Shown: piece by piece, positions 2,642 through 61,405 of the stretch
How positions within the stretch are numbered: position 1 is the first letter of the stretch
Layout: each line of letters opens with the position of its first letter
From: a virus
Direction: 5' to 3' (one strand)
DNA length: 64,000 bases
IMG/VR virus record: IMGVR_UViG_3300036820_000013
Coordinates: 15,081-79,080 of that record
The notes under the pieces: model-generated
The model's input: only the letters and a program-made list of their open reading frames with translations
Told to the model about the DNA's origin: nothing
Databases searched by the model: none
Program-made: the position numbers and the translations under genes

Positions 2642-2917
2642 ATGAAGCCCGTCGAGTGCAAAAAGTGTCAAGAGAAGATCACGCAACTACCAACCGGAAC
2701 GTGGATCGACGGCCTCGGAGTCGTGTTCTGCCTAAGACAGCCTAACGGAACTCCATTGGAAGAGTTCGGGCTGCATGAACCGATCATCGACCCCGAATGG
2801 GCTGATCGCATCCGCTCCCTCGCCAAGTACAGCCCATCGCACTGGACCCCGGGCGAGATCGCCAAGCTAATGCAACTGGCCGAAACCCAGGTCAAGAATA
2901 TCCTCGAGGACACATGA
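2642..2917 (+). CDS. Small Cys-containing protein with possible C-terminal HTH
   Basis: RBS gaggagg before ATG 2642; CKKC motif; C-terminal WTPGEIAKLMQLAETQVKNIL looks HTH-like. Confidence 0.55.
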   Translation: MKPVECKKCQEKITQLPTGTWIDGLGVVFCLRQPNGTPLEEFGLHEPIIDPEWADRIRSLAKYSPSHWTPGEIAKLMQLAETQVKNILEDT

Positions 2918-3696
2918 CTGAGACGCTCCTGGTCAATGAAATCTTTGGGCCCACTATTCAGGGCGAAGGACCCGCAACCGGACGCAAGTGCGCCTTCGTT
3001 CGACTAGCGATCTGCCCGCTTCGTTGTCGCTGGTGCGATACCGCCTACACTTGGGCGTTCACGCCCTCGCTCGCGCTGAGGCACCAGAGTCATATCACGT
3101 ATGACGGGGCAGAAGAAGTGCACAAGATGTCGATTGAGGACATCGTTAAGCACACGCTACACGCGCTAAAAGGCTCGCAGTTGGTCATCCTATCAGGTGG
3201 TGAGCCACTAGCTCAGGTCCCGCCAAGTATGCAGCGTCCTGATGCGGTCACCACCGATAATGCCGACCCTGTGGCGATGCTAATCAAGGAACTCTACATA
3301 CATGGAGTCCTGACACATATCGAGACCGCGGGAGTTCGGCTACCCAGTCCTTATCTACACCAATACGTTAACCGCTACGTCGTGTCCCCGAAGCTAGTCA
3401 CTAGTGGCAATAGCCTAGAGGCGCGCCGAAAGCTTGACGTCCTGGAGTTCTTCGCTCAGACCGCCAAGGCTGACTTCAAGTTCGTTATTACCACGCCTGC
3501 AGACTTCAGTGAAGTCGCCCTGATCGAGAACCTATGTCGCATCCCTCAGGAACGCATCTGGGTGATGCCGGAAGGGACTACGGCAGAAGCGATTCAGCGC
3601 AAACTGCCGATGGTAGCTGAAGGCGCGCTCAAGCATGGCTATAACGTCTCGACCCGACTTCATGTTCACATCTGGGGCGACGAGAGGAAGCGCTAA
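2914..3696 (+). CDS. queE: 7-carboxy-7-deazaguanine synthase (radical SAM)
   Basis: NEIFGPTIQGEG, FVRL, CPLRCRWCDT (CxxxCxxC), LSGGEP, IETAG, VVSPK, DFKFVI, STRLHVHIWG. Confidence 0.95.
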   Translation: MTETLLVNEIFGPTIQGEGPATGRKCAFVRLAICPLRCRWCDTAYTWAFTPSLALRHQSHITYDGAEEVHKMSIEDIVKHTLHALKGSQLVILSGGEPLAQVPPSMQRPDAVTTDNADPVAMLIKELYIHGVLTHIETAGVRLPSPYLHQYVNRYVVSPKLVTSGNSLEARRKLDVLEFFAQTAKADFKFVITTPADFSEVALIENLCRIPQERIWVMPEGTTAEAIQRKLPMVAEGALKHGYNVSTRLHVHIWGDERKR

Positions 3697-3800
3697 TGGA
3701 AAAGCCTCTAGCGGTAGCGGTCCTGATCATTGTCGTTGCCATCATAGCGCTCGGCCTCGCGACCTGGCTTCTCACCGCATTCCAACCTTAGGAGCGGCTC

Positions 3801-4043
3801 ATGATTATCAGCCTGCAGATCCCAGATGAAGACTCAGACCTCATGATCGCGCTCAAGGATGTATTGCCTTTTGTGGCTCGATGTATTCGAGCAGAGGCGC
3901 TCCTAAGCCAAATGACGCGCAGTGAGATGCTCCGTCTAACTAGTAGTCAGGCAAGCCTACAAGGAGTCCAAGAGCTCCAACGTGCTGTCGGCGAGCTACT
4001 GAACCCGAAACGCGAGATCAGGATCGACCCAGATGTCCTATAG
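3801..4043 (+). CDS. Hypothetical protein
   Basis: RBS aggag; overlaps the next gene. Confidence 0.55.
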   Translation: MIISLQIPDEDSDLMIALKDVLPFVARCIRAEALLSQMTRSEMLRLTSSQASLQGVQELQRAVGELLNPKREIRIDPDVL

Positions 4044-4350
4044 TTCCAAAGAACTGCAAAATCAGGCAGGTATCACTGGCCGTCAGATGGATCATTGGTA
4101 CCGGCATGGCTGGCTGGTCTCCTTCGAACGCCATTCAGATGACGGCTCTGGGACGCCGATTGAATGGCCCGAAAGGACCCTGCGCAAGGCTATCCTAATG
4201 GGCATCCTGATCGGCTCCGGCTTCACTCCGATACGCGCTCACGATCTGGCTGAGCGCTACCTGAATCGTCCGACGTTGACCGATCCATTTACAGCCCTCG
4301 CAGGTGTCGGAGTGCAAGTCACGATATCGCTTCGGGAGAGCCTCATATGA
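4033..4350 (+). CDS. MerR-like HTH DNA-binding protein
   Basis: YSSKELQNQAGITGRQMDHWYRHGWL...GSG matches the MerR/excisionase-type winged HTH pattern. Confidence 0.7.
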   Translation: MSYSSKELQNQAGITGRQMDHWYRHGWLVSFERHSDDGSGTPIEWPERTLRKAILMGILIGSGFTPIRAHDLAERYLNRPTLTDPFTALAGVGVQVTISLRESLI

Positions 4351-4532
4351 TCTGCGAGCCTTGCCGCCGCGCTGGCGACATTCTTTCCTCAGTAGAAGAT
4401 CCCGACCCTTTCGATGAGAGCAACATGATCGCGCTACATCGGCGATGCAAGGGCGGAACCTTTTGCGACTGCCAACATAGCATTAACCCCAACATGCTCA
4501 ACCAAGAACGGATCAAGAAAAATGACGGCTAA
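4347..4532 (+). CDS. Small Cys/His-rich protein
   Basis: CEPC...HRRC...CDCQH; translationally coupled on both sides. Confidence 0.6.
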   Translation: MICEPCRRAGDILSSVEDPDPFDESNMIALHRRCKGGTFCDCQHSINPNMLNQERIKKNDG

Positions 4533-6130: not shown

Positions 6131-7240
6131 ATGAACAAGCTACTCAGTATCGGAGCCGCACTGGCCCTACTCACTGGAGCTGGCCTAGGCGTGAATGCTG
6201 CCGCATCAGCAAGTCCGGCCTGGACTGCCAGCTGTGCAGCGGGTGCATCGACTAGCGCCTCAGGCTGCGGGTCGTGGGATGCGGCACCATCCTCAGGGCA
6301 GGCTCCAGGGTTCCTCGCCGGTCAGCAGTCTCAACCCAACCTGATCGACGTCAATCAGGACGGCTGGTCAGGTAGTCAGGGAGCGCAGTCCATCTCTGCG
6401 TCTACCTATCAGAACTGGAGCGTTACTGCAACAGACACGCCCCCACAGGCGAACTCAGCCCAGATCCTCACCTACCCAGACACGAGCTTCAACTACTACC
6501 AGCTCAACGCGGCTCCGAACTATACGGACCCGCCTAGCGGATACGACCTGAACAATATCAGTTCTCTGACCAGCTCGTACAGCGAGACCATGCCGGCGAC
6601 CTCAGACAAGTACACGGCCGAGGCCGCCTACGACATCTGGTTGAACAACTGGGACACCGAGGTCATGGTGTGGACCGACGTTCACTATCAAGGCGTCGAC
6701 TGTGGCGGCCCAGGCTGGACGCCGGAGTGCAGCGGTGACACCCTGCTCGGCAACTATACCTACGACGGCCAGCAGTGGTCTCTATACGACAACGGCGGCG
6801 GCATCAACGGTTACTACATGTGGATTCCGGACAACGGGACAGCCCTAGATGCGGTCAGCCAGCCGAGCGGAACCGTCGACCTGAAGGACATGCTAGCTCA
6901 GACCGCCACCTCCGGCAAGTTCACGGCCGACTCTCCACTGACCTCAATCGACTACGGTTGGGAAATCGCTGACACGGGAGGCAAGCCACTTACCTTCACA
7001 ATGAACAGCCTCAGCGTGAGTATCAACGGCAGTACTACCCCACCGCCGGCACCCACGACCACGCCGACTACGCCTGCACCTACTACGCCGCCGCCAAGTA
7101 CTCCTCCCCCCACGCCTAGTTCGGCAACGATCTACGCCTGTGCCGCCAAGAGCGGTGCGATCAGCAAGCTCAACGATACAACGGCGCCTACATGCGCTAG
7201 CGGCTCCACACCCATCTCATGGTCCGCCCAGGAAGGCTAG
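6131..7240 (+). CDS. Secreted glycoside hydrolase family 12 (endoglucanase-like) with Pro/Thr linker and small C-terminal Cys domain
   Basis: Signal peptide MNKLLSIGAALALLTGAGLGVNAAASA; GH12 motifs NQDGW, TYP, EAAYDIW, EVMVW (nucleophile), YGWEI (acid/base); PT-rich linker; strong RBS aggaaaagga. Confidence 0.85.
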   Translation: MNKLLSIGAALALLTGAGLGVNAAASASPAWTASCAAGASTSASGCGSWDAAPSSGQAPGFLAGQQSQPNLIDVNQDGWSGSQGAQSISASTYQNWSVTATDTPPQANSAQILTYPDTSFNYYQLNAAPNYTDPPSGYDLNNISSLTSSYSETMPATSDKYTAEAAYDIWLNNWDTEVMVWTDVHYQGVDCGGPGWTPECSGDTLLGNYTYDGQQWSLYDNGGGINGYYMWIPDNGTALDAVSQPSGTVDLKDMLAQTATSGKFTADSPLTSIDYGWEIADTGGKPLTFTMNSLSVSINGSTTPPPAPTTTPTTPAPTTPPPSTPPPTPSSATIYACAAKSGAISKLNDTTAPTCASGSTPISWSAQEG

Positions 7241-16549: not shown

Positions 16550-19126
16550 ATGACTGCTGAACTAGTTCAGCCGAGCAGCCAGCGTCGTCACCCCTTGGCA
16601 CAATGCGAGAACTGCCCCCTCAATACCGACGATTATGGCTACGTCCCTAGCTATGGTCCGGACCGAGCGCTCATAGGACTAGTTGGGCAGAACCCTGGCA
16701 GGGCCGAGATCAGGTCCGGCCGGCCATTCATTGGTCCATCAGGGAGGCTCCTAGACAAAACGCTACAAGCGTTTCACTTGGACCGTAGCAAAATGTTCAT
16801 CACGAATGCTTGTCTCTGCACAGATAAGCGCAACCCCAGTTTCACTCCACCGCCTGGAGCGATCCAAGCCTGCAGGCCTAGATTGCTAACCGAGCTGAAG
16901 CAACGAGGCGTCGAGCAGATCGTTGCGATGGGGAACTCGGCCGCACAGTCCTTGCTCAGGACTAAGACAGGCATTACCACGCTGCGCGTCGGGCCATATC
17001 GCGAAACGCCTGAGCTACCCGGTGTCAAGATCATCCCGACCTTCCACCCTGCTGCGTGCCTTCGCTCATCCTCGTCATTTCCTTCCATGGCTAATGACTT
17101 TCAGAAGCTAGTTAGTCATGCCCCACCTTGGCAGGAGCCGACGGTTCGTGTCCTCGACTCCGAACGTGGAGCACTGCTAGCAATCAAGGTACTGCGCCGT
17201 AGGTTCCATAAGACCGTAGTCGACATCGAAGTAGCCATTGATAAAGAGAAGTCCTTTGACCACCCAAATAGGTTCGGCATCCTTTGTATCGGCGTCTGCG
17301 TCCAAAAGGGCATAGGCATCGTCTTTGGCGAGAAAGCTTGCCAATCTAAAGCGGTCCTAGCCGACCTGGCAGCTTGGTTTAAAGAGTCGGAGCTGATCCT
17401 CCAGAATGGTAAGTTCGACCTCGGAGGCCTGCACCCGATTGGGTTCCTGGACCTAAGGATCGGCCAGGACACGATGTTCAAGAGCTACGTGCTCGACGAG
17501 CGCTCTGGAGTTCATGGACTGAAGTACAACGCCGTCGAGAAACTAGGAGCGCCCCGTTATGACGAGGAGCTAAGTCACTACATTCCTAAGGGCGGCAACT
17601 ATGGACATATACCGCGACGCATACTCTATATCTATAATGGCTACGATGTCGTCTGCACATGGGACCTCAATGAGTTCTTTGACTCCGAAATCGATCGTGA
17701 GGACGCTCTTCATCTTGAACCTATCCGCCCTCGTGCCGATGGAGAGTGGTGGGGACTGGGTCGTCTACATGACTTCCTCTGCGATGCCGCGACCAACTTT
17801 ATCTACACCGAGCTAAACGGCTTCGCCGTCGACCTGCCCTACAACAAGGTGCTGCAGAAAGAGTATAAGGCCGAACTCGCCAGCTACGAAAAGACCATGA
17901 CGAGCATCGTCGGACCGTTCAACCCTCGGTCTCCGATGCAAGTCAAGGACGTACTAAGGGACCTCCAAGTTCCAATCCCGAAGAAGAAAAACGCCAAGGG
18001 CCTCATGGCGGAGACAACTGACGCTGAAGCCCTAACCTTGATGTTCGAAGCCTCCAAAGAACGTCGAGCGCGCCGCAAGGACCCTTGGTCCGAAGACGAC
18101 GATGCCGTAATATTTCTTGGCACGATGCTCAAGCATCGCAAGGCCAGCAAAATGGACGGGACCTATGTATCAGGGCTACGCAAGTACGTCTGGCGCGGTC
18201 GTGTTTATCCAACCATCATGCTCCACAGTACAAATACCGGTCGGCTATCACAAAAGAAGCCCAGCCTACAGGTCATTCCTCGTGGCGACAAGCTGCGTCG
18301 TCAATATAAAGTGTCCAAGCCTGACCATGTGCTGATTGAGGCTGACTACGGACAGCTAGAGCTCCGCGTTCTGACCTGGTTGGCTCAGGATGAGTACTTC
18401 GCCGAGATCTTCAGGGACCCGACGCGCGACCTGTTCGACGAGCTCATTCCAGTCATCAGGCCAGAGAGGTCCTACAGACAACAGTTGTCCAAGAAGGATC
18501 GCCGCAACGTCATCAAGTGCTTCGTTTACGGATTGGCTTACGGCCGCGAGGCTAAGTCCATCGCTGAGGAGCTGGACATCCCGTTGCGGGAAGCTCAAGC
18601 GATGCTGCGGGACTTCTTTAGCGTCATTCCAGACATCGTCTCGTTCCGCGAAAAAGCAAAAATGATGGCCCTGCATGGCAACGACCTCATTACGCCGTTT
18701 GGGCGTCGTCGCAGGTTCAACCTAATCACGGATGAGAACACCAAGGAGATCCAGAACGAGGCCTGCGCATTCTTCCCGCAGTCGATCGGATCGGATATCT
18801 GTGTCAGTGCCTTCACTGTGCTCCGGCCAGAGCTCAAGGGCGTAGCGTGGTGTCGTAATACGATTCACGACGCGCTATACTTCGAGACCCACCAGGACAA
18901 TGTCGCATACGTAGGCAACCTCATGAGACAGCGTATGATCGAATCAGCCGTCAGGATCGTCGGTGACTACGTTCCGTTCAAGATCGACGTCGAAGTTGGT
19001 CGAGATTGGGGCACTATGATTAAATTGGAAGAGTGGCTCGACGGTAAGCGTCCTTATTCATGTGCTGTAGAGCTCTGGAAGCCTCCGATGTTTCAGGACG
19101 TAGCGAATGTCTCAGCCAGCGCTTGA
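16550..19126 (+). CDS. polA: DNA polymerase I (family A) with N-terminal uracil-DNA glycosylase-like domain and 3'-5' exonuclease
   Basis: UDG-like: CENCPL, GQNPG, PFIGPSG, ITNACLC, HPAA. Exonuclease: DIE, NGKFD, YNGYD. Polymerase: TGRLS, ADYGQLELR, KCFVYGLAYG, TIHDA. Confidence 0.95.
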   Translation: MTAELVQPSSQRRHPLAQCENCPLNTDDYGYVPSYGPDRALIGLVGQNPGRAEIRSGRPFIGPSGRLLDKTLQAFHLDRSKMFITNACLCTDKRNPSFTPPPGAIQACRPRLLTELKQRGVEQIVAMGNSAAQSLLRTKTGITTLRVGPYRETPELPGVKIIPTFHPAACLRSSSSFPSMANDFQKLVSHAPPWQEPTVRVLDSERGALLAIKVLRRRFHKTVVDIEVAIDKEKSFDHPNRFGILCIGVCVQKGIGIVFGEKACQSKAVLADLAAWFKESELILQNGKFDLGGLHPIGFLDLRIGQDTMFKSYVLDERSGVHGLKYNAVEKLGAPRYDEELSHYIPKGGNYGHIPRRILYIYNGYDVVCTWDLNEFFDSEIDREDALHLEPIRPRADGEWWGLGRLHDFLCDAATNFIYTELNGFAVDLPYNKVLQKEYKAELASYEKTMTSIVGPFNPRSPMQVKDVLRDLQVPIPKKKNAKGLMAETTDAEALTLMFEASKERRARRKDPWSEDDDAVIFLGTMLKHRKASKMDGTYVSGLRKYVWRGRVYPTIMLHSTNTGRLSQKKPSLQVIPRGDKLRRQYKVSKPDHVLIEADYGQLELRVLTWLAQDEYFAEIFRDPTRDLFDELIPVIRPERSYRQQLSKKDRRNVIKCFVYGLAYGREAKSIAEELDIPLREAQAMLRDFFSVIPDIVSFREKAKMMALHGNDLITPFGRRRRFNLITDENTKEIQNEACAFFPQSIGSDICVSAFTVLRPELKGVAWCRNTIHDALYFETHQDNVAYVGNLMRQRMIESAVRIVGDYVPFKIDVEVGRDWGTMIKLEEWLDGKRPYSCAVELWKPPMFQDVANVSASA

Positions 19127-52881: not shown

Positions 52882-53001
52882 TTCGCCCTATAGCTAATTA
52901 TATCCCGATAGGCTTAAGGACGTTCTACGAAATTTCAAAAAACTCGATAAAAGCCTATTGATTAAGCGTTAGTATCTATGATATAATTAGATATAGGCGA
53001 A
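52882..53001. promoter_or_regulatory. Divergent promoter pair forming an imperfect inverted repeat
   Basis: Minus strand GATATAATTAGCTATAGGGCGAA (52904-52882); plus strand GATATAATTAGATATAGGCGAA (52980-53001) with TTGATT -35 at 52958. Confidence 0.75.
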
Positions 53002-53026: not shown

Positions 53027-53362
53027 ATGGCAGAACGTGTCCAGGGGGCTGAAGGACCGCGGAGGCGGCGCTGGTACCCTTGGGATAAATGGACTGACGG
53101 GAGCGTCTGGCGTGCAACACAGACTGAAGACTTCACCTGCTCGCCTTCCAGCTTCCAGACAGCCCTCCATCAGCGTGCCAGGCAGCAGGGCCTCGACGTT
53201 ACTACAGGCAGCCCAGAGCCTGGTATCGTCGAATTCCAGTTCGTAGAAAAGGCTTCTAAACTAAACAGCCCTCTAATCATCGACCAAGACGCTCTCGAAG
53301 CTGGCTACCCGATCGATATGGACCCAGAACCTCTAGGCGGCAATGACCTCGAGGTTCAGTAA
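53027..53362 (+). CDS. Small putative DNA-binding protein (paralog of 54490-54723)
   Basis: YPWDKWTDGSVWRA.Q.EDF...F...L...AR..G. Confidence 0.7.
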   Translation: MAERVQGAEGPRRRRWYPWDKWTDGSVWRATQTEDFTCSPSSFQTALHQRARQQGLDVTTGSPEPGIVEFQFVEKASKLNSPLIIDQDALEAGYPIDMDPEPLGGNDLEVQ

Positions 53363-54294
53363 TGCCTGAACTGGACCTAGATCACCTCACGATACCACCC
53401 CCCAACATAAAGGCTATCCAAACCCGAGCAAAGATGTATCTAGAACAAAGACTAGGCGACGATCGAGGACAGCACCAGCTCCTCGAAATGATCGCAGATG
53501 CAGAATATTCGCTCCCGGATCCGCAGCTGTATCCAGACTTCCTGTCCATCGAGTTCAATGCGCCTCGATATCGTATCGACAGGCTCTGGCCATACGGCGG
53601 TACCGTGCTGCTTGCCGCTCGCTACAAGTCCGGCAAGAGCACCCTGAAGCTGAACCTCATCCGATGCCTCACTACAGGTGAGGACTTCCTAGGTCAGCCA
53701 GTCATACCAATCTCGGGCAGCGAACTTGTCCTCGACGTTAATCTCGAGGTCGACGAACGCACTCAGCAGCACTACGCGCGCCCCTTCGGCTTGCCTGCTA
53801 ACGCGGCCGTGCTAAACCTGCGCGGGCAAGCAAAGTCGTTCAATATCATTAGCGACACGATTCGCGCCCGGATCGCTTCCATGCTACGTGACATGAACGT
53901 CAAGATCCTAGTCATCGACCCACTCGGTCCGCTAATCCGAGTTTTCAACCTCACGGAGAACGCCAATGACTCAACCGGAGGAGGAGCCCTCGTTGAGGCC
54001 TTCAATCAACTCGCCCATGAAGCCGGAGATATTGACACCTTTCTCATACACCACACAGGACACAGCGCTCAACGTCGAGCTCGAGGTGGCTCGGTATTTG
54101 GCGACGCAGCCGATGCCCTATGGAGTTACCGAATCGGAGGACAAGGCGGACAGAGCGACGAGGAATTCGATCAAGATGAAAAGGGTACTCGATACTTTTC
54201 GGCGACCGGTCGACTAGAGTCTGACATGGAAGAATTCCCGGTCTTCTTCGATCAGCGCTCGCATCGCCTATCGCGCACTCCGAGCGTACTATGA
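53362..54294 (+). CDS. RecA/RepA-like AAA helicase
   Basis: LLAARYKSGKST (Walker A), NLE, LVIDP (Walker B), EN, IHHTG, RARGGS. Confidence 0.85.
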   Translation: MPELDLDHLTIPPPNIKAIQTRAKMYLEQRLGDDRGQHQLLEMIADAEYSLPDPQLYPDFLSIEFNAPRYRIDRLWPYGGTVLLAARYKSGKSTLKLNLIRCLTTGEDFLGQPVIPISGSELVLDVNLEVDERTQQHYARPFGLPANAAVLNLRGQAKSFNIISDTIRARIASMLRDMNVKILVIDPLGPLIRVFNLTENANDSTGGGALVEAFNQLAHEAGDIDTFLIHHTGHSAQRRARGGSVFGDAADALWSYRIGGQGGQSDEEFDQDEKGTRYFSATGRLESDMEEFPVFFDQRSHRLSRTPSVL

Positions 54295-54488
54295 AATTCC
54301 CAGTCTACATCCGACATAAGGTCGGCTGGTGCCCCGTCTGCGGAGCGCCGATCCTCGACGCAGGCTGGACCGACGACCCTAACGGCTGGGTACACGCTAT
54401 GCCCCTATATGAGGTCCTGCCAATAACACCAGCGGCGGGCATCCAATCGTCTACAGTCCCTCCCTGCGCTATGGCTCTATCGATATGA
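54291..54488 (+). CDS. Small CxxC protein
   Basis: WCPVCGAP; ATGA coupling. Confidence 0.55.
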   Translation: MKFPVYIRHKVGWCPVCGAPILDAGWTDDPNGWVHAMPLYEVLPITPAAGIQSSTVPPCAMALSI

Positions 54489-54489
54489 C

Positions 54490-54723
54490 ATGGCCCCGCG
54501 AATCGGACGGCCAGAGAAATACGACTGGAACGAACTAACTGACGGCACGGTCTGGAAAGCGATACAAGACGAAGACTTCAACTCAACCCTAGACGGCTTC
54601 CGCTCGCTGCTACAATATCATGCACGTAAACTAGGTACCTCAGTAGAAATTCACACTAGAGGCCAGGCAGTCTGGTTTCAGTTCCACAAGGGCGGACAGG
54701 CGGAGAGTGAGCGTAATCATTGA
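54490..54723 (+). CDS. Small putative DNA-binding protein (paralog of 53027-53362)
   Basis: GRPEKYDWNELTDGTVWKAIQDEDF. Confidence 0.7.
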   Translation: MAPRIGRPEKYDWNELTDGTVWKAIQDEDFNSTLDGFRSLLQYHARKLGTSVEIHTRGQAVWFQFHKGGQAESERNH

Positions 54724-54789
54724 AGAATGGCGTCCATTTCCTAACCAGGAAGGGCGCTACGAAAGTAAAACCTGGCAGTATATAAGGGG

Positions 54790-55227
54790 ATGAGTTGGCT
54801 GACGGTAAGTAGTCCCGATTGGGAAGCCCTAAAGGCACGATTCGAAGGCCTACGTGGTGGACGCGTCGACGAGCGCGGCCGCAGGGTCACCCGTTCCGAA
54901 GCAGAAATGCGCCGACTGTTCAATATAGGCTTGCCTAGTAGTCCAGTTGCCGAAGTCGAGCGCACACGCGCACGCACAATCGTTCGCGAGCGTGTACGCG
55001 AAGTAGACGGCGACACAAAGTACAACGATCCCTACTTCGAGCTCGAATGGATGCGCGTTACGCGCGAGAATCCTGAACTCCTCAATAACGCTGCCGAGAA
55101 CCGCAATATTCTATGGAGTGCATACTACGCTCGAGGCACTCCAAATCGCGACCGCTGGAGGCGTCGATGGACGCGCCATATGGGTCGGGAGCTATCCTCG
55201 AACGAAGTCGAGTTCGGAGACACTTAA
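54790..55227 (+). CDS. Arg-rich hypothetical protein, candidate terminal/primer protein
   Basis: 145 aa, Arg-rich and helical, just upstream of the pPolB-like gene; function inferred from context only. Confidence 0.55.
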   Translation: MSWLTVSSPDWEALKARFEGLRGGRVDERGRRVTRSEAEMRRLFNIGLPSSPVAEVERTRARTIVRERVREVDGDTKYNDPYFELEWMRVTRENPELLNNAAENRNILWSAYYARGTPNRDRWRRRWTRHMGRELSSNEVEFGDT

Positions 55228-55228
55228 G

Positions 55229-55405
55229 ATGAGTACGGTCTACTTCTGCTGGATATGCGAGTGCCCTATAGAGGGCCCATTCGGCATAGATTCGACCGTA
55301 CAGTCACTGGTCTCCTATACCGACACTCATTACGAGTCAGGCCAGCAGATCTTCTTCTGCGGAGCCATCCATTGGCTCGAGTACCGCAAGCTAAAGGACC
55401 TGTAA
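55229..55405 (+). CDS. Small Cys-rich protein
   Basis: FCWIC...FC...H; fills the gap between neighbours. Confidence 0.55.
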   Translation: MSTVYFCWICECPIEGPFGIDSTVQSLVSYTDTHYESGQQIFFCGAIHWLEYRKLKDL

Positions 55406-55407
55406 CG

Positions 55408-56712
55408 ATGCAGCAATTCAACAGCTGGTCAGATAGCGACCTCATTAAGCACGAAGTCGCAACGAGAAAGCCGCGGGAAGAAGCGCTTAGCCATGAAGAG
55501 AAGCTCAAGCGCGACCGAGATCGCGCGGCCGCTCGTAGGCAGCAAGAGTTTCTACCGATGTCGGCTCACTTTCAGGACGCCTATGGCACCCAAGTCTGTT
55601 ACGGTCAGCTACGCTGGATCGCGGAACGCCTCCTAGCCACCCTTCCGACCGCCGATCATCGCATGTTGCTTAGCGAAGGCATCCCGATATTGACCCCATG
55701 GGGCAAGGTATGCCTAAGGGTCTACAAGGAAGGCTCCCAAGTAACAGGCGGGGAGCTATGGTACCAGCTAACTTCCAATCCAAAAAGGACCAATCACATC
55801 TTTGATGTACGGCCATTCTTCATGCAGTCGCGCGAGAAGACCGCTACGCTCTACGGAACAGACAACGCTTCAGCGATCATGAAACAGGCACGCCTCGAAC
55901 TCGCCGACGTTGGCCTCCGAGCCTATCAAAACCGCTGGTTCCGCAACTCTTCGATAGCCGACTTCCTGTTCCACGAGATGAAAATCGACCTAGACCGCAT
56001 TCCGATTGTGAATCATAACCTCTATCCGGCAACCGAAGCCTCATCTGTCGCTTGCGGCTACCTCCCGGGTCCGATTCATGAGTTCGACATGGTCAGCGCT
56101 TACGCATCATCGATGCTCGAATTTCCACAACTCGGCGACTTCGCGCAGGCGCTCGATGCCGCTCGTAAGAGCCTAGAAGGCAAACCTACCGCTAGAGTCC
56201 TGAAGGTGACCCAGAGTGTCCTGCCTGGAAAGTTTCTATCGCCCAAGCTACCAACGTTCCGTCCAGATCTGGGAACTTACATTCGAGGAAATACTCGCGC
56301 TCTACTCATCCAAGCCATGGAGCGGGCCGTTGCCGCCTACGGTACCGTGTATCGTTGGAATACCGACGGCTTCTTCACCAACGTGGATATATCAAGACAA
56401 CTCGATATCGGAGACAACCTTGGCCAATGGAAACATACGGTACACGATTATCTACTCATAGCACAGACTAACGTCTTCAAGACAAACCTGAAGTCGCGCG
56501 ACTGCGGCTATAATATCGACTGGGACGCGGTCCGCGAGAACCCGCTCCTCATCCATACATCTATGCCAACAACAGACTGGACTACGTTCACGGAGCACAA
56601 CGCACCACGAGTCCTAAAGTTCGACGGCGGGTATCATAATTGTGAACACGACGGCTATGGATGCCACGGAGAGTATCACTATAAGCGGGAGGCCTGGGAT
56701 CAACTGTGGTAA
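55408..56712 (+). CDS. Divergent, shortened family-B (protein-primed type) DNA polymerase-like protein
   Basis: Motif A FDMVSAYASSM, motif B-like LKVTQSVLPGKF, IRGNTRALL, motif C WNTDG, LGQWK, KSRDCG. Confidence 0.72.
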   Translation: MQQFNSWSDSDLIKHEVATRKPREEALSHEEKLKRDRDRAAARRQQEFLPMSAHFQDAYGTQVCYGQLRWIAERLLATLPTADHRMLLSEGIPILTPWGKVCLRVYKEGSQVTGGELWYQLTSNPKRTNHIFDVRPFFMQSREKTATLYGTDNASAIMKQARLELADVGLRAYQNRWFRNSSIADFLFHEMKIDLDRIPIVNHNLYPATEASSVACGYLPGPIHEFDMVSAYASSMLEFPQLGDFAQALDAARKSLEGKPTARVLKVTQSVLPGKFLSPKLPTFRPDLGTYIRGNTRALLIQAMERAVAAYGTVYRWNTDGFFTNVDISRQLDIGDNLGQWKHTVHDYLLIAQTNVFKTNLKSRDCGYNIDWDAVRENPLLIHTSMPTTDWTTFTEHNAPRVLKFDGGYHNCEHDGYGCHGEYHYKREAWDQLW

Positions 56713-56768
56713 TGAGCGCACAGCACTCTATCCCTGAAGATTCGCTTGATCTTTACCCTCCGTCGCTC

Positions 56769-56803
56769 TTGAAAATACGTTGGGATCTATGATAAAATTA
56801 GAT
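56769..56803 (+). promoter_or_regulatory. Sigma70-type promoter
   Basis: TTGAAA, 18-nt spacer, TGaTAAAAT; atctatgataaaattagat matches 52974-52992 at 18 of 19 positions. Confidence 0.7.
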
Positions 56804-56979: not shown

Positions 56980-57141
56980 TTGTGTATCCAGCCAACTGAA
57001 TGCGAACACTATTGTTACAATTGCGGTCATTGGGGCCGCCTTATGGACCGAGTGTTCTGTATATATTGCCTAAAATGGTTCTACGAAAACGGTGCACTAC
57101 CGACCGGTCAAGAGCGGAGCCATAATGTCCAGCCGATCTAG
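56980..57141 (+). CDS. Small zinc-finger-like protein (53 aa)
   Basis: Manual translation from TTG: MCIQPTECEHYCYNCGHWGRLMDRVFCIYCLKWFYENG...; two CxxC motifs. Confidence 0.5.
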   Translation: MCIQPTECEHYCYNCGHWGRLMDRVFCIYCLKWFYENGALPTGQERSHNVQPI

Positions 57142-57403
57142 CAAGCTTCGCCGCGGTTCTACCGGCTGGCTCTGTGTAGCCATCGGCACCATCCTCTGGG
57201 ACGCGCTCGCTGAAGAAGACGAGCAACTAACATACGCATTCCGCAGAGGCTTCAAGACCCGTAAGATCCTAGTCAGCGCCGCCTGGGGTTACCTAACCTG
57301 CCACCTCTTCGGCGCGATCCCGGATCGATATGACATAATCCACTACATCGGTACTGCATATCGAAGGAGGCTCCATGGCTACCAAGGCTCAAGTCCAGCA
57401 TGA
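57125..57403 (+). CDS. Small membrane-associated protein
   Basis: GWLCVAIGTILWD...EQLT...AWGYLTCHL; RBS ggag. Confidence 0.65.
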   Translation: MSSRSSKLRRGSTGWLCVAIGTILWDALAEEDEQLTYAFRRGFKTRKILVSAAWGYLTCHLFGAIPDRYDIIHYIGTAYRRRLHGYQGSSPA

Positions 57404-60642: not shown

Positions 60643-60921
60643 ATGGCCAAGATTAGAGTCCTACGCCTACTCGAGTATGTCTACGACAACCAAGCGCGCG
60701 CCGATGAGGATCAAGCCCGCTGGCAGACACCTGCCGCAGGGTCGTTCATCGCCTCGGGCATGATGATTCGCTCAGCGATCATAACCGACCTGAACTTCGG
60801 CGGGGACGAGGCCGAGAACCAGGACGAGTATAATCGCAGAATACGACGTGGCAAAGCTCGCTGTCCATGCTCGCTCGGCCCCGAGCCGCATTCCTACGGC
60901 TGGCACGATGTCGAGGACTAA
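60643..60921 (+). CDS. Hypothetical protein
   Basis: IRVLRLLEY N-terminus. Confidence 0.55.
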   Translation: MAKIRVLRLLEYVYDNQARADEDQARWQTPAAGSFIASGMMIRSAIITDLNFGGDEAENQDEYNRRIRRGKARCPCSLGPEPHSYGWHDVED

Positions 60922-61405
60922 GACAGGCATGCCTTGGGCTGAGATTTGGCAGCCTGTCTGTAACGGTTGCTACGAGGTCTCGGCTAACGCCGAAGTCCGT
61001 AACGCGAAGACCAAGCGGCTGCGAAAGATCCAAACCGGAACAGGTCGCGGCATTGTCAAGCTGCAAGACGCTATAGGCCAGCCAGCTAAGTGGCACCGAG
61101 TAGCAGTCCTAGTCCTAGAAGCCTTCGTTAAACCCCGACCGCCAGGAATGATTGCCTGCCACGGCCCAAACGGAATCCTCGACGATTCGCTCCTCAATGT
61201 CTACTGGGGCCTATACCATACTAATAATGGGGTCGATCGCATGCGAGACGACACAAGCCTCGCGAAACTAAGTCCCGCCCAAGTACTCGAGATCAAGGAG
61301 CGGCTCCCTAGCGAGACCGATTACCAGATCGCAAAGGACTATCCAGTAGGAGCAGCTGCCATTCGCCATATTCGACGTGGCCTTACATGGGAGTATCTAG
61401 CATGA
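60908..61405 (+). CDS. NUMOD4/HNH homing endonuclease-like protein
   Basis: EIWQPV...YEVSANAEVR, LVLEAF..PRP...CH..NG...D...N, C-terminal HTH (AKLS...IAKDY...TW); some HNH residues look degenerate. Confidence 0.78.
   Translation: MSRTKTGMPWAEIWQPVCNGCYEVSANAEVRNAKTKRLRKIQTGTGRGIVKLQDAIGQPAKWHRVAVLVLEAFVKPRPPGMIACHGPNGILDDSLLNVYWGLYHTNNGVDRMRDDTSLAKLSPAQVLEIKERLPSETDYQIAKDYPVGAAAIRHIRRGLTWEYLA

What the first reader, a model, noticed from the sequence alone, without database searches (positions are those of the whole stretch)
54790..56712. Minimal protein-primed-type PolB with remodelled active site beside a candidate primer protein, in a phage that already has PolA
Seen: a 434-aa protein keeps the catalytic aspartates of motifs A (FDMVSAY) and C (NTDG) and LGQWK, but motif B KxxxNSxYG has become KVTQSVLPG, the YxGG motif is lost, there is no room for the TPR1 insertion after motif A, and no exonuclease carboxylate motifs are evident. 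Upstream is an Arg-rich 145-aa protein (WSAYY, C-terminal FGDT) in the position terminal-protein genes often occupy. Established: motif B Asn/Tyr shape the templating pocket, and a terminase-packaged siphovirus does not need protein priming. Inference: a repurposed, possibly template-independent nucleotidyltransferase that makes protein-linked DNA (decoy, end cap or anti-defence signal) or nucleotidylates a protein. This is my best candidate for an undescribed system.
Basis: partly seen in the sequence, partly recalled or inferred. Interest (0 to 1): 0.85.

Follow-up and report, generated by a model that had tools for sequence, protein, structure and literature searches.

The report
Shrunken phage PolB with partner protein
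An uncultured actinophage-like virus that already has a normal DNA polymerase I also keeps, under strong selection, a stripped-down tectivirus-type family-B polymerase. It is always paired with a small arginine-rich protein and usually a helicase, and it most likely starts DNA chains rather than copying the genome.

Summary
The gene at 55408-56712 encodes a real family-B polymerase of the protein-primed lineage: profile-profile probability is 99.95%, the AlphaFold model has pLDDT 88.5, and its best structural match is phi29 polymerase at Z 13.9. All three exonuclease motifs, YxGG, TPR1 and TPR2 are gone. Motif B keeps only Lys and Gly. The catalytic Asp227 and Asp320, the steric-gate Tyr232, Lys266 and Arg297 are conserved, and a C-terminal His/Cys knuckle is present. 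It is not decaying (dN/dS 0.02). The short forms fall on one side of a single tree branch.

The 145-aa upstream protein sits directly upstream in all 10 loci with context, including one with a full-length 638-aa relative. An AAA_25 helicase shares the operon in 8 of 10. The near-complete genomes carry PolA but no recognisable primase.

My best reading (about 0.4) is a polymerase-derived priming enzyme with a small partner and a helicase, a B-family parallel to the SCCmec CcPol-MP primase and to piPolB. Protein priming on the 145-aa protein (about 0.17) is not excluded. I found no evidence for template-independent synthesis.

This scan noted the same module earlier on other DNA (e1-6035062).

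The parts
52955..52992 (+). Promoter-like site P1 (TTGATT-18-TG-TATAAT), first copy of a 38-nt repeat
   Evidence: 10/12 match with extended -10. The 19-nt core occurs only twice in the window (expected 0.01).
53027..53362 (+). 111-aa small protein, paralogue of the 77-aa gene; no known family
   Evidence: (D1 repeat), 95: conserved in L001-L006, L011, L032, L034
53362..54294 (+). AAA_25 (RepA/DnaB-like) P-loop helicase, 310 aa
   Evidence: PF13481, E 1.4e-21; 36% identity to 'DnaB-like helicase' of Mycobacterium prophages; present in L001-L006 and L011.
54291..54488 (+). 65-aa Cys-containing small protein
   Evidence: conserved in L001-L003; a paralogue elsewhere in L006
54490..54723 (+). 77-aa small protein, paralogue of the 111-aa gene
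54790..55227 (+). 145-aa Arg-rich partner protein (P0002) with an acidic C-terminal tail
   Evidence: 33 homologues; directly upstream of the PolB gene in 10/10 loci; dN/dS 0.07
55229..55405 (+). 58-aa Cys-rich ORF, an insertion specific to this phage
   Evidence: no family and no homologue in related loci
55408..56712 (+). Reduced family-B DNA polymerase (434 aa): dead exo-like domain, palm, short fingers, hairpin thumb and a C-terminal His/Cys knuckle
56766..56803 (+). Promoter-like site P2 (TTGAAA-18-TG-TAAAAT), second copy of the repeat, start of the next unit

Best explanation
The 434-aa protein is a catalytically active, strongly reduced descendant of a tectivirus-type (protein-primed lineage) family-B DNA polymerase. 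It has given up proofreading, processivity and strand displacement. With the 145-aa Arg-rich partner, and usually the AAA_25 helicase of the same early operon, it acts as an initiating enzyme. It makes short DNA chains de novo on unwound template, and the phage's PolA then extends them. In effect it would be a two-subunit polymerase-derived primase attached to a helicase.

Shown: homology, fold, which parts are lost and kept, purifying selection, gene linkage, and the lack of a recognisable primase.

Inferred: de novo synthesis, complex formation, ssDNA binding by the partner, and hand-off to PolA.
For: 1. It is a true PolB.
- hhalign against PF03175-bearing full-length relatives gives 99.95% probability, E 8e-38.
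- The model has pLDDT 88.5.
- Best structural matches: phi29 polymerase at Z 13.9, rmsd 4.1 over 337 residues, with other PolBs at Z 8-11. Foldseek hits are all PolBs. The Toil and WheeHeim polymerases top the viral library.

2. The catalytic core is kept over deep divergence.
- K266, G274, D320, G339 and G367 are invariant, and D227 is nearly invariant, in 43 sequences down to about 21% identity.
- These map on phi29 D249, K383 and D458. Y232 maps on the steric gate Y254.

3. Selection is strongly purifying.
- dN/dS is 0.019 in the only unsaturated pair. Elsewhere pN is 0.14-0.41 against saturated pS.
- The short forms are one side of a branch with 100% support and have long internal branches.

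4. What is lost is what a replicase needs and a primase does not: Exo I-III, TPR1, TPR2, YxGG, motif B Asn/Tyr and the KxY Lys.

5. A C-terminal H-x-C...C...H knuckle is added (H410, C412, H424 invariant, C419 at 90% or more). From my own knowledge, zinc modules are typical of DnaG, T7 and UL52/PrimPol primases.

6. Context.
- A discrete early operon lies between two near-identical promoters.
- The partner gene is directly upstream in 10/10 loci, often with TAATG stop-start overlap.
- AAA_25 is in the operon in 8/10 loci.
- In L011 the same cassette carries a full-length 638-aa PolB in a phage with terminase and portal.

7. No recognisable primase.
- No Prim-Pol, Toprim, Toprim_2, Toprim_3 or DnaG zinc ribbon in this record or in 5 related records, one of them 95% complete.
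- All three 77-87 kb relatives have PolA.
- The nearest cultured phage by terminase, KimJongPhill, has an 802-aa 'primase/helicase' with an AAA_25 domain. It has no homologue here.

8. Precedents.
- piPolB is a B-family enzyme that primes de novo and shares the xTDG motif C (PMC5695915).
- CcPol-MP is a truncated A-family polymerase plus a small ssDNA-binding partner in a helicase operon, shown to be a primase (PMC10061031).
Against: - No biochemistry exists for any member.
- AAA_25 is missing from the cassette in L032 and L034. These contigs are short (8-12 kb), so it may lie elsewhere, but the helicase link is weaker than the partner link.
- Absence of a primase rests on Pfam models. The primase domain of KimJongPhill gp70 is itself invisible to Pfam, so a divergent primase among the unannotated ORFs cannot be excluded (for example 6131-7240, 369 aa). 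The record is also only about 85% complete.
- Many phages simply borrow the host primase.
- The fold of the partner is unknown, and no ssDNA binding has been shown.
- Loss of the KxY Lys and of motif B Asn/Tyr could equally mean a sloppy primer-dependent polymerase.
Confidence: 0.4

Rival explanations
1. Protein-primed synthesis. The 145-aa protein is a miniature terminal protein whose hydroxyl residue near the acidic C-terminus primes DNA synthesis by the mini-PolB. This would give protein-linked DNA for replication initiation at an internal origin or end, or for another purpose.
For: - The lineage is the protein-primed one.
- The gene order, small basic protein directly upstream of the polymerase, matches phi29 gp3-gp2 and holds in 10/10 loci, including the full-length relative.
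- A Ser or Thr lies within the last two residues in every homologue seen...GDT...EDT...EET...WDS...VSD...VSE.
Against: - TPR1, which contacts the terminal protein in phi29 (PMC5695915 introduction), is deleted while the pairing persists.
- The terminal Thr is not conserved in L032 and L034.
- At 125-148 aa the protein is far smaller than known terminal proteins (my own knowledge).
- The P0002 profile finds nothing among ORFs of 20-odd tectivirus-like loci.
- There are no inverted terminal repeats at the record ends, and the phage packages with a terminase.
- An acidic tail ending in a hydrophobic residue plus acidic residues also fits an SSB-like interaction tail.
Confidence: 0.17
2. A primer-dependent specialised DNA polymerase. 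It would be a low-fidelity, distributive second polymerase, for example for gap filling, lesion bypass or recombination-dependent restart, with the 145-aa protein as an accessory or targeting factor.
For: - The catalytic core and the steric-gate Tyr are kept.
- Proofreading and the fidelity residues of motif B are lost.
- Second, exo-dead and thumb-reduced PolA variants beside a regular replicase are described in phages and are thought to be non-replicative (divPolA1/2, PMC11348598).
Against: - It is placed at the head of the early operon with a replicative-type helicase, not with repair genes.
- The added zinc knuckle and the obligatory small partner are not features of known bypass polymerases.
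- This reading does not explain how a primase-less genome starts its chains.
Confidence: 0.2
3. A catalytically inert structural subunit of a helicase complex, as herpesvirus UL8 is in the helicase-primase, or an exapted PolB such as poxvirus F12.
For: - Exapted and inactivated PolBs associated with helicases exist (PMC5499653, PMC4304020).
- The HHV-1 helicase-primase entry and UL8-type proteins appear among the structural matches (rank 13; ranks 32, 39, 43).
Against: The metal-binding Asp residues, the motif B Lys and R297 are invariant or nearly so across sequences of 21-25% identity. Inactivated PolBs lose exactly these residues.
Confidence: 0.06
4. An anti-defence or signalling nucleotidyltransferase that makes template-independent DNA or nucleotidylates a protein.
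For: - It is in the first early operon, where counter-defence genes often sit.
- The templating-pocket residues are relaxed.
Against: - There are no PADLOC matches for any cassette protein.
- It is linked to a replicative-type helicase.
- The same cassette carries a complete, exo-proficient PolB in L011.
- The steric gate and R297 are kept.
Confidence: 0.07

Closest known systems
Protein-primed family-B polymerases of actinobacterial tectiviruses (Rhodococcus phage Toil, Streptomyces phage WheeHeim, Microbacterium phage Badulia group); structural prototype phi29 gp2
   Same: - Homologous over exo-like domain, palm, fingers and thumb.
- Shares motif A D..SAY, motif C xTDG with the first Asp missing, LGQW and the Tx2GR Arg.
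- The closest full-length relatives hit these phages at 25-28% identity.
   Different: - About 200 residues shorter.
- Exo I/II/III carboxylates, YxGG, TPR1 and TPR2 are gone, and motif B Asn/Ser/Tyr are replaced.
- A C-terminal His/Cys knuckle is added.
- It sits in 77-87 kb terminase-packaged phages beside PolA, not in 15-18 kb tectiviruses.
piPolB of pipolins (Redrejo-Rodriguez et al. 2017, PMC5695915)
   Same: - B-family enzyme of the TPR-bearing lineage with motif C lacking the first Asp (SxTTDG versus NTDG).
- KxY is altered.
- Proven ability of a PolB to prime de novo, which is the function proposed here.
   Different: - piPolBs keep an active exonuclease, TPR1 and TPR2, are about 800 aa, and live in integrative pipolins.
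- No sequence match to plasmids.
- The KTRG equivalent is only K362-x-R364-x-x-G367 here.
CcPol-MP primase with Cch2 helicase of SCCmec and the PolA-SSB pairs (Bebel 2020, summarised in Rice 2023, PMC10061031)
   Same: The same logic: a truncated replicative-type polymerase with intact catalytic site, plus a small partner of no known family encoded next to it, plus a helicase in one operon of a mobile element that lacks a canonical primase.
   Different: - That polymerase is A-family, not B-family.
- Its partner is an OB-fold protein. The partner here is Arg-rich with an unknown fold.
- The hosts are Bacillota MGEs, not an actinophage-like virus.
divPolA1/divPolA2, second divergent polymerases in Caudoviricetes (Yutin et al. 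2024, PMC11348598)
   Same: An exo-dead polymerase with reduced accessory domains, encoded in addition to a regular replicase.
   Different: Those are family A. No B-family counterpart is described in that survey.
Inactivated PolB derivatives (herpesvirus UL8, poxvirus F12, PLV helicase-PolB fusions; PMC4304020, PMC5499653)
   Same: A reduced PolB fold recruited beside a helicase or primase.
   Different: Those have lost the catalytic residues. This family keeps them invariant.

Membership tests
Family-B DNA polymerase, protein-primed lineage (Pfam PF03175 DNA_pol_B_2) | Match to the Pfam model above its gathering score | tested here: not met
   No Pfam hit at E<=1 and none for PF03175 at E<=10 on the record. 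Only PHROG 11768 'DNA polymerase' at E 0.0019.
Family-B DNA polymerase, protein-primed lineage (Pfam PF03175 DNA_pol_B_2) | Homology to members by profile comparison, and a PolB fold | tested here: met
   hhalign 99.95%, E 8e-38, to proteins with PF03175 hits. phi29 polymerase at Z 13.9 over 337 residues. Foldseek PDB and BFVD top hits are all PolBs.
Family-B DNA polymerase, protein-primed lineage (Pfam PF03175 DNA_pol_B_2) | Catalytic Asp of motif A and motif C | tested here: met
   D227 = phi29 D249 and D320 = phi29 D458. D320 is invariant and D227 nearly invariant in 43 sequences.
Family-B DNA polymerase, protein-primed lineage (Pfam PF03175 DNA_pol_B_2) | Motif B KxxxNSxYG | tested here: not met
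   Only K266 and G274 are kept. N387->S270 and Y390->P273.
Family-B DNA polymerase, protein-primed lineage (Pfam PF03175 DNA_pol_B_2) | 3'-5' exonuclease motifs Exo I, II, III | tested here: not met
   D12/E14 -> gap/L33; N62/D66 -> G66/W70; Y165/D169 -> gap/G150. The full-length relatives keep D66 and Y165/E.
Family-B DNA polymerase, protein-primed lineage (Pfam PF03175 DNA_pol_B_2) | TPR1 and TPR2 insertions | tested here: not met
   phi29 259-355 and 399-423 have no counterpart. There is a gap of about 95 columns after motif A against the full-length relatives.
Family-B DNA polymerase, protein-primed lineage (Pfam PF03175 DNA_pol_B_2) | A terminal protein and inverted terminal repeats | tested here: inconclusive
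   A small basic protein is encoded upstream, but it has no similarity to ORFs in tectivirus-like loci. There is no ITR at the ends of the record, which is incomplete.
piPolB | Motif C SxTTDG (first Asp replaced) | tested here: met
   RWNTDGF, shared with the whole tectivirus-type clade. Motif definition from PMC5695915.
piPolB | KH-X8-KTRG in place of KxY | tested here: inconclusive
   KxY is NxF here. K342-H343 and K362-x-R364-x-x-G367 exist but with different spacing. No piPolB sequence was at hand to align.
piPolB | Active exonuclease, TPR1 and TPR2 present; located in a pipolin | tested here: not met
   The context is a tailed phage. No plasmid match.
piPolB | Primer-independent DNA synthesis | not testable with these tools
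   Needs biochemistry.
Polymerase-derived two-subunit primase (CcPol-MP type) | Truncated polymerase with an intact catalytic site | tested here: met
Polymerase-derived two-subunit primase (CcPol-MP type) | Small partner gene adjacent and co-inherited | tested here: met
   10/10 loci. Nine shared contigs by length. TAATG overlaps.
Polymerase-derived two-subunit primase (CcPol-MP type) | Helicase in the same operon | tested here: inconclusive
   AAA_25 is present in 8/10 loci. It is absent from the cassette in L032 and L034.
Polymerase-derived two-subunit primase (CcPol-MP type) | A-family polymerase and OB-fold partner | tested here: not met
   The polymerase is B-family.
Inactivated PolB (UL8/F12 type) | Loss of the catalytic carboxylates | tested here: not met
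   D227 and D320 are conserved.

The most novel reading that the evidence does not exclude
The mini-PolB uses a hydroxyl residue in the acidic C-terminal tail of the 145-aa protein as primer. It would then make protein-linked DNA inside a 79-kb terminase-packaged phage.
Probability: 0.15. Interest if true: 0.88.

Novelty: new variant of a known kind. Interest (0 to 1): 0.62.

Why it matters
Almost all known primases are DnaG or AEP enzymes. The only exceptions established so far are piPolB and the A-family CcPol-MP pair. A minimal B-family polymerase with a dedicated partner that primes for a PolA replicase would be a third independent route from polymerase to primase.

It would also show how far a PolB can be pared down (434 aa, with no exonuclease, TPR1 or TPR2) and stay functional. 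It would explain how a whole clade of soil phages with deazaguanine-modified DNA starts replication without a recognisable primase.

The chain from tectivirus PolB, to full-length PolB in a tailed-phage cassette (L011), to the reduced form also documents capture of a polymerase across viral realms, followed by a change of job. Such a small enzyme could be useful for primer-free amplification.

Tried and rejected
**Searches that gave nothing**
- Pfam, NCBIfam and PADLOC for the 434-aa and 145-aa proteins.
- tblastn against cultured phages and plasmids.
- Profile searches against PDB sequences.
- The ESM Atlas for the partner.

**Structure**
- The first AlphaFold run, on 17 close homologues, was unusable (pLDDT 44). 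It worked only after adding the distant and full-length relatives.

**Context of the most distant short forms (P0030-P0041)**
- Single-protein scans of the viral and metagenome collections found nothing.
- The genome-contig scan found no prophage copy.

**Complex prediction**

**Readings rejected**
- A decaying remnant: dN/dS is 0.02-0.18.
- An inactive pseudo-enzyme: the catalytic residues are invariant.
- A mobile module bounded by direct repeats: the 19/38-nt repeats are two copies of an early promoter.
- The 145-aa protein as a split-off piece of the polymerase: the full-length P0037 has the same partner.
- The ORF start at 55255: homologues start at the Met of 55408.

**Other negative checks**
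- No terminal repeats at the record ends.
- No canonical SSB (PF00436) in the record.
Full report
**What is there**

The window is bases 15081-79080 of a 79,080-bp uncultured virus record, estimated about 85% complete. It is a tailed phage. The large terminase, portal, scaffold, major head, tape measure and tail genes lie on the minus strand. On the plus strand is an early/middle arm with a helicase, exonuclease, Sak4-like annealase, QueE and a family-A polymerase at 16550-19126. Its terminase is nearest (about 40-43% identity) to Streptomyces phages such as KimJongPhill and Zuko, so the host is probably an actinobacterium.

The finding lies at the very start of the plus-strand arm, just after the divergence from the terminase operon. 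The 434-aa protein starts at 55408, the Met at which all homologues start. The 145-aa protein occupies 54790-55227. A 58-aa Cys-rich ORF (55229-55405), private to this phage, fills the space between them.

**It is a real family-B polymerase**

Curated libraries do not see it. There are no Pfam or NCBIfam hits and only a marginal PHROG hit.

An exhaustive HMMER search found 29 cluster representatives. About 20 are short forms of 386-489 aa. The rest are 600-720 aa proteins that carry PF03175. A profile of 19 short forms against a profile of 11 long forms gives 99.95% probability (E 8e-38) over residues 42-377.

With a 43-sequence alignment AlphaFold gives pLDDT 88.5 and pTM 0.81. The best match among 48,161 PDB representatives is phi29 polymerase (Z 13.9, rmsd 4.1 A, 337 residues, model 42-404 on chain 5-575). 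Only other PolBs follow, at Z 8-11. Foldseek agrees. Among viral models the top hits are the polymerases of Rhodococcus phage Toil and Streptomyces phage WheeHeim. tblastn of the long relatives also points to these actinobacterial tectiviruses.

**What is kept and what is lost**

I added phi29 gp2 to the alignment (canonical numbering).

Kept:
- D249->D227 (motif A)
- Y254->Y232 (steric gate)
- K383->K266 and G391->G274 (motif B)
- R438->R297
- D458->D320 (motif C)
- LGYW->LGQW

Lost or changed:
- Exo I (gap/L33), Exo II (G66/W70) and Exo III (gap/G150)
- YxGG (deleted)
- N387->S270 and Y390->P273
- D456->N318
- K498/Y500->N355/F357
- phi29 259-355 (TPR1) and 399-423 (TPR2) have no counterpart.

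K266, G274, D320, G339 and G367 are invariant, and D227 nearly so, in all 43 sequences, which fall to about 21% identity.

A C-terminal H-x-C...C...H knuckle (H410, C412, C419, H424) is conserved in nearly all short forms and in the two nearest full-length forms. It is absent from most tectivirus-type enzymes.

The 'NTDG' motif is not a special remodelling. The whole clade has xTDG, as do piPolBs (SxTTDG).

**It is maintained, old and of single origin**

In the only pair with unsaturated synonymous sites (L002/L003), dN/dS is 0.019 for the polymerase, 0.067 for the 145-aa gene and 0.035 for the helicase. In the other pairs pS is saturated while pN stays at 0.14-0.41.

In a quick maximum-likelihood tree all 21 short forms fall on one side of a branch (SH-aLRT 100), with long internal branches. 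The full-length P0037/P0042 pair sits next to that split. The tree was a quick search only and is unrooted.

**The gene neighbourhood**

The cassette (53027-56712) lies between two copies of a 38-nt repeat. Each copy is a good sigma-70-type promoter with an extended -10. They mark one transcription unit, not the ends of a mobile element.

The gene order is:
1. 111-aa protein
2. AAA_25 helicase (PF13481, E 1e-21; 36% identical to the 'DnaB-like helicase' of Mycobacterium prophages)
3. 65-aa protein
4. 77-aa paralogue of the first gene
5. 145-aa protein
6. (58-aa ORF)
7. mini-PolB

Six related viral contigs keep this order, at 42-78% identity of the polymerase.

Three further loci are more telling:
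- L032 and L034 carry distant short forms (35% identity). They have the two small paralogues and the 145-aa homologue directly upstream, but no AAA_25 in the cassette.
- L011 carries the full-length 638-aa P0037, which still has Exo motifs and TPR1. It is preceded by the same small protein, AAA_25 and a 125-aa homologue of the 145-aa protein, joined by TAATG overlaps, and followed by terminase and portal genes.

So the partner protein accompanies this polymerase lineage in 10 of 10 loci, and the helicase in 8 of 10. The pairing predates the reduction of the polymerase. Contig-length matches link nine more partner/polymerase pairs.

**The partner protein**

It is 125-148 aa, with pI about 10 and 26 Arg. 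It has invariant blocks (GLxGGRxDERG, IVRERVR, DPYFELE, LWxAYYxR) and an acidic tail.

The terminal Thr, which is striking in the close family, becomes ...WDS...VSD and ...VSE in distant members. What is conserved is an acidic tail with a hydrophobic residue and a nearby hydroxyl.

It has no family, no PDB relative, and no similarity to ORFs of tectivirus-like loci.

**No primase in sight**

This record and five related records, one of them 95% complete, contain no Prim-Pol, Toprim, Toprim_2, Toprim_3 or DnaG zinc ribbon. The three long relatives all have PolA.

KimJongPhill encodes an 802-aa 'primase/helicase' whose C-terminal half is an AAA_25 domain. Nothing here resembles its N-terminal half.

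One caveat applies. That N-terminal primase domain is itself invisible to Pfam, so absence by Pfam is weak evidence, and unannotated ORFs remain.

**Interpretation**

The enzyme has shed everything that makes phi29-type polymerases accurate, processive replicases. It has kept the chemistry and the dNTP steric gate, gained a zinc-type knuckle, and stayed welded to a small basic partner and, usually, a replicative helicase in an early operon of a phage that has its own PolA and no visible primase.

The closest functional models are piPolB, a PolB that primes de novo (PMC5695915), and CcPol-MP-Cch2, a truncated PolA plus a small ssDNA-binding partner plus a helicase, shown to be a primase (summarised in PMC10061031). 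I therefore favour a polymerase-derived priming enzyme (about 0.4).

The rivals are:
- Protein priming on the partner (0.17). The lineage and gene order fit this. The loss of TPR1, the non-conserved terminal residue and the terminase-packaged 79-kb genome argue against it.
- A distributive primer-dependent repair polymerase (0.2), by analogy with divPolA1/2 (PMC11348598).
- An inert scaffold of the UL8 type (0.06). The invariant catalytic residues contradict this.
- An anti-defence transferase (0.07). Nothing supports this.

**Novelty**

Three full-text searches and the Caudoviricetes polymerase survey turned up no description of a reduced protein-primed-type PolB with this partner. The family has no Pfam or NCBIfam model and no member among 50,697 cultured-phage records.

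This scan had already noted the same module on another genome and reached a similar reading (e1-6035062). That is not independent evidence.

I class it as a new variant of a known kind. It is a member of the PolB superfamily that fails several defining features of its parent subgroup and probably works like a primase.

Noticed in passing
L011:264-8983 (viral contig of 10,765 bp): A full-length 638-aa tectivirus-type PolB (Exo motifs and TPR1 present, motif B already degenerate, same C-terminal His/Cys knuckle) sits in the same small-protein/AAA_25/partner cassette. It is next to large terminase and portal genes. This places a protein-primed-type polymerase in a terminase-packaged tailed phage.
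   Followed up: partly
alignment A5: P0046, P0047, P0048, P0050, P0052: Several full-length tectivirus-type relatives carry a literal KTRG motif downstream of a K-less KxY, together with xTDG in motif C. These are the two signature variants reported for primer-independent piPolBs. Whether these 'protein-primed' enzymes are closer to piPolB than assumed was not resolved.
   Followed up: no
window 55229-55405; L004:7381-8001: The short spacer between the partner gene and the polymerase gene accepts insertions. This phage has a 58-aa Cys-rich ORF there, and L004 has an HNH endonuclease homologous to window 60848-61405.
   Followed up: partly
window 53027-53362 and 54490-54723: Two paralogous small proteins (shared W..TDG..W....EDF...F...LH..AR..G core) of no known family are conserved in every cassette, including L011, L032 and L034. 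They could be origin-binding or regulatory proteins.
   Followed up: partly
records of L002 and L005 (G001:34599-35864, G003:46536-47774): The PolA ORFs of two related phages are 1133-1153 aa, against 858 aa here. Their Pfam match is split between model positions 69/70 and 74, which suggests an insertion (intein or other domain) in the polymerase.
   Followed up: no
window 2914-3696; record 3203-4369 (L008): There is a QueE-like radical-SAM gene (7-deazaguanine pathway) and a 388-aa DUF3631 protein. DUF3631 is common in actinobacterial primase/helicase-like proteins, and the N-terminal 220 residues of this one are unassigned.
   Followed up: no
window 57092-57403: A 103-aa protein of family DUF7427 (E 5e-16) is the second gene of the next early unit. 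It is conserved in L001-L003.
   Followed up: no
BFVD hits: Other short PolB-like proteins exist in tailed phages: Bifidobacterium phage BadAztec1 (469 aa), Enterococcus phage vB_EfaS_785CS 'DNA polymerase B-like' (428 aa) and Klebsiella phage PMBT1 (291 aa). Reduction of PolB may have happened more than once.
   Followed up: no
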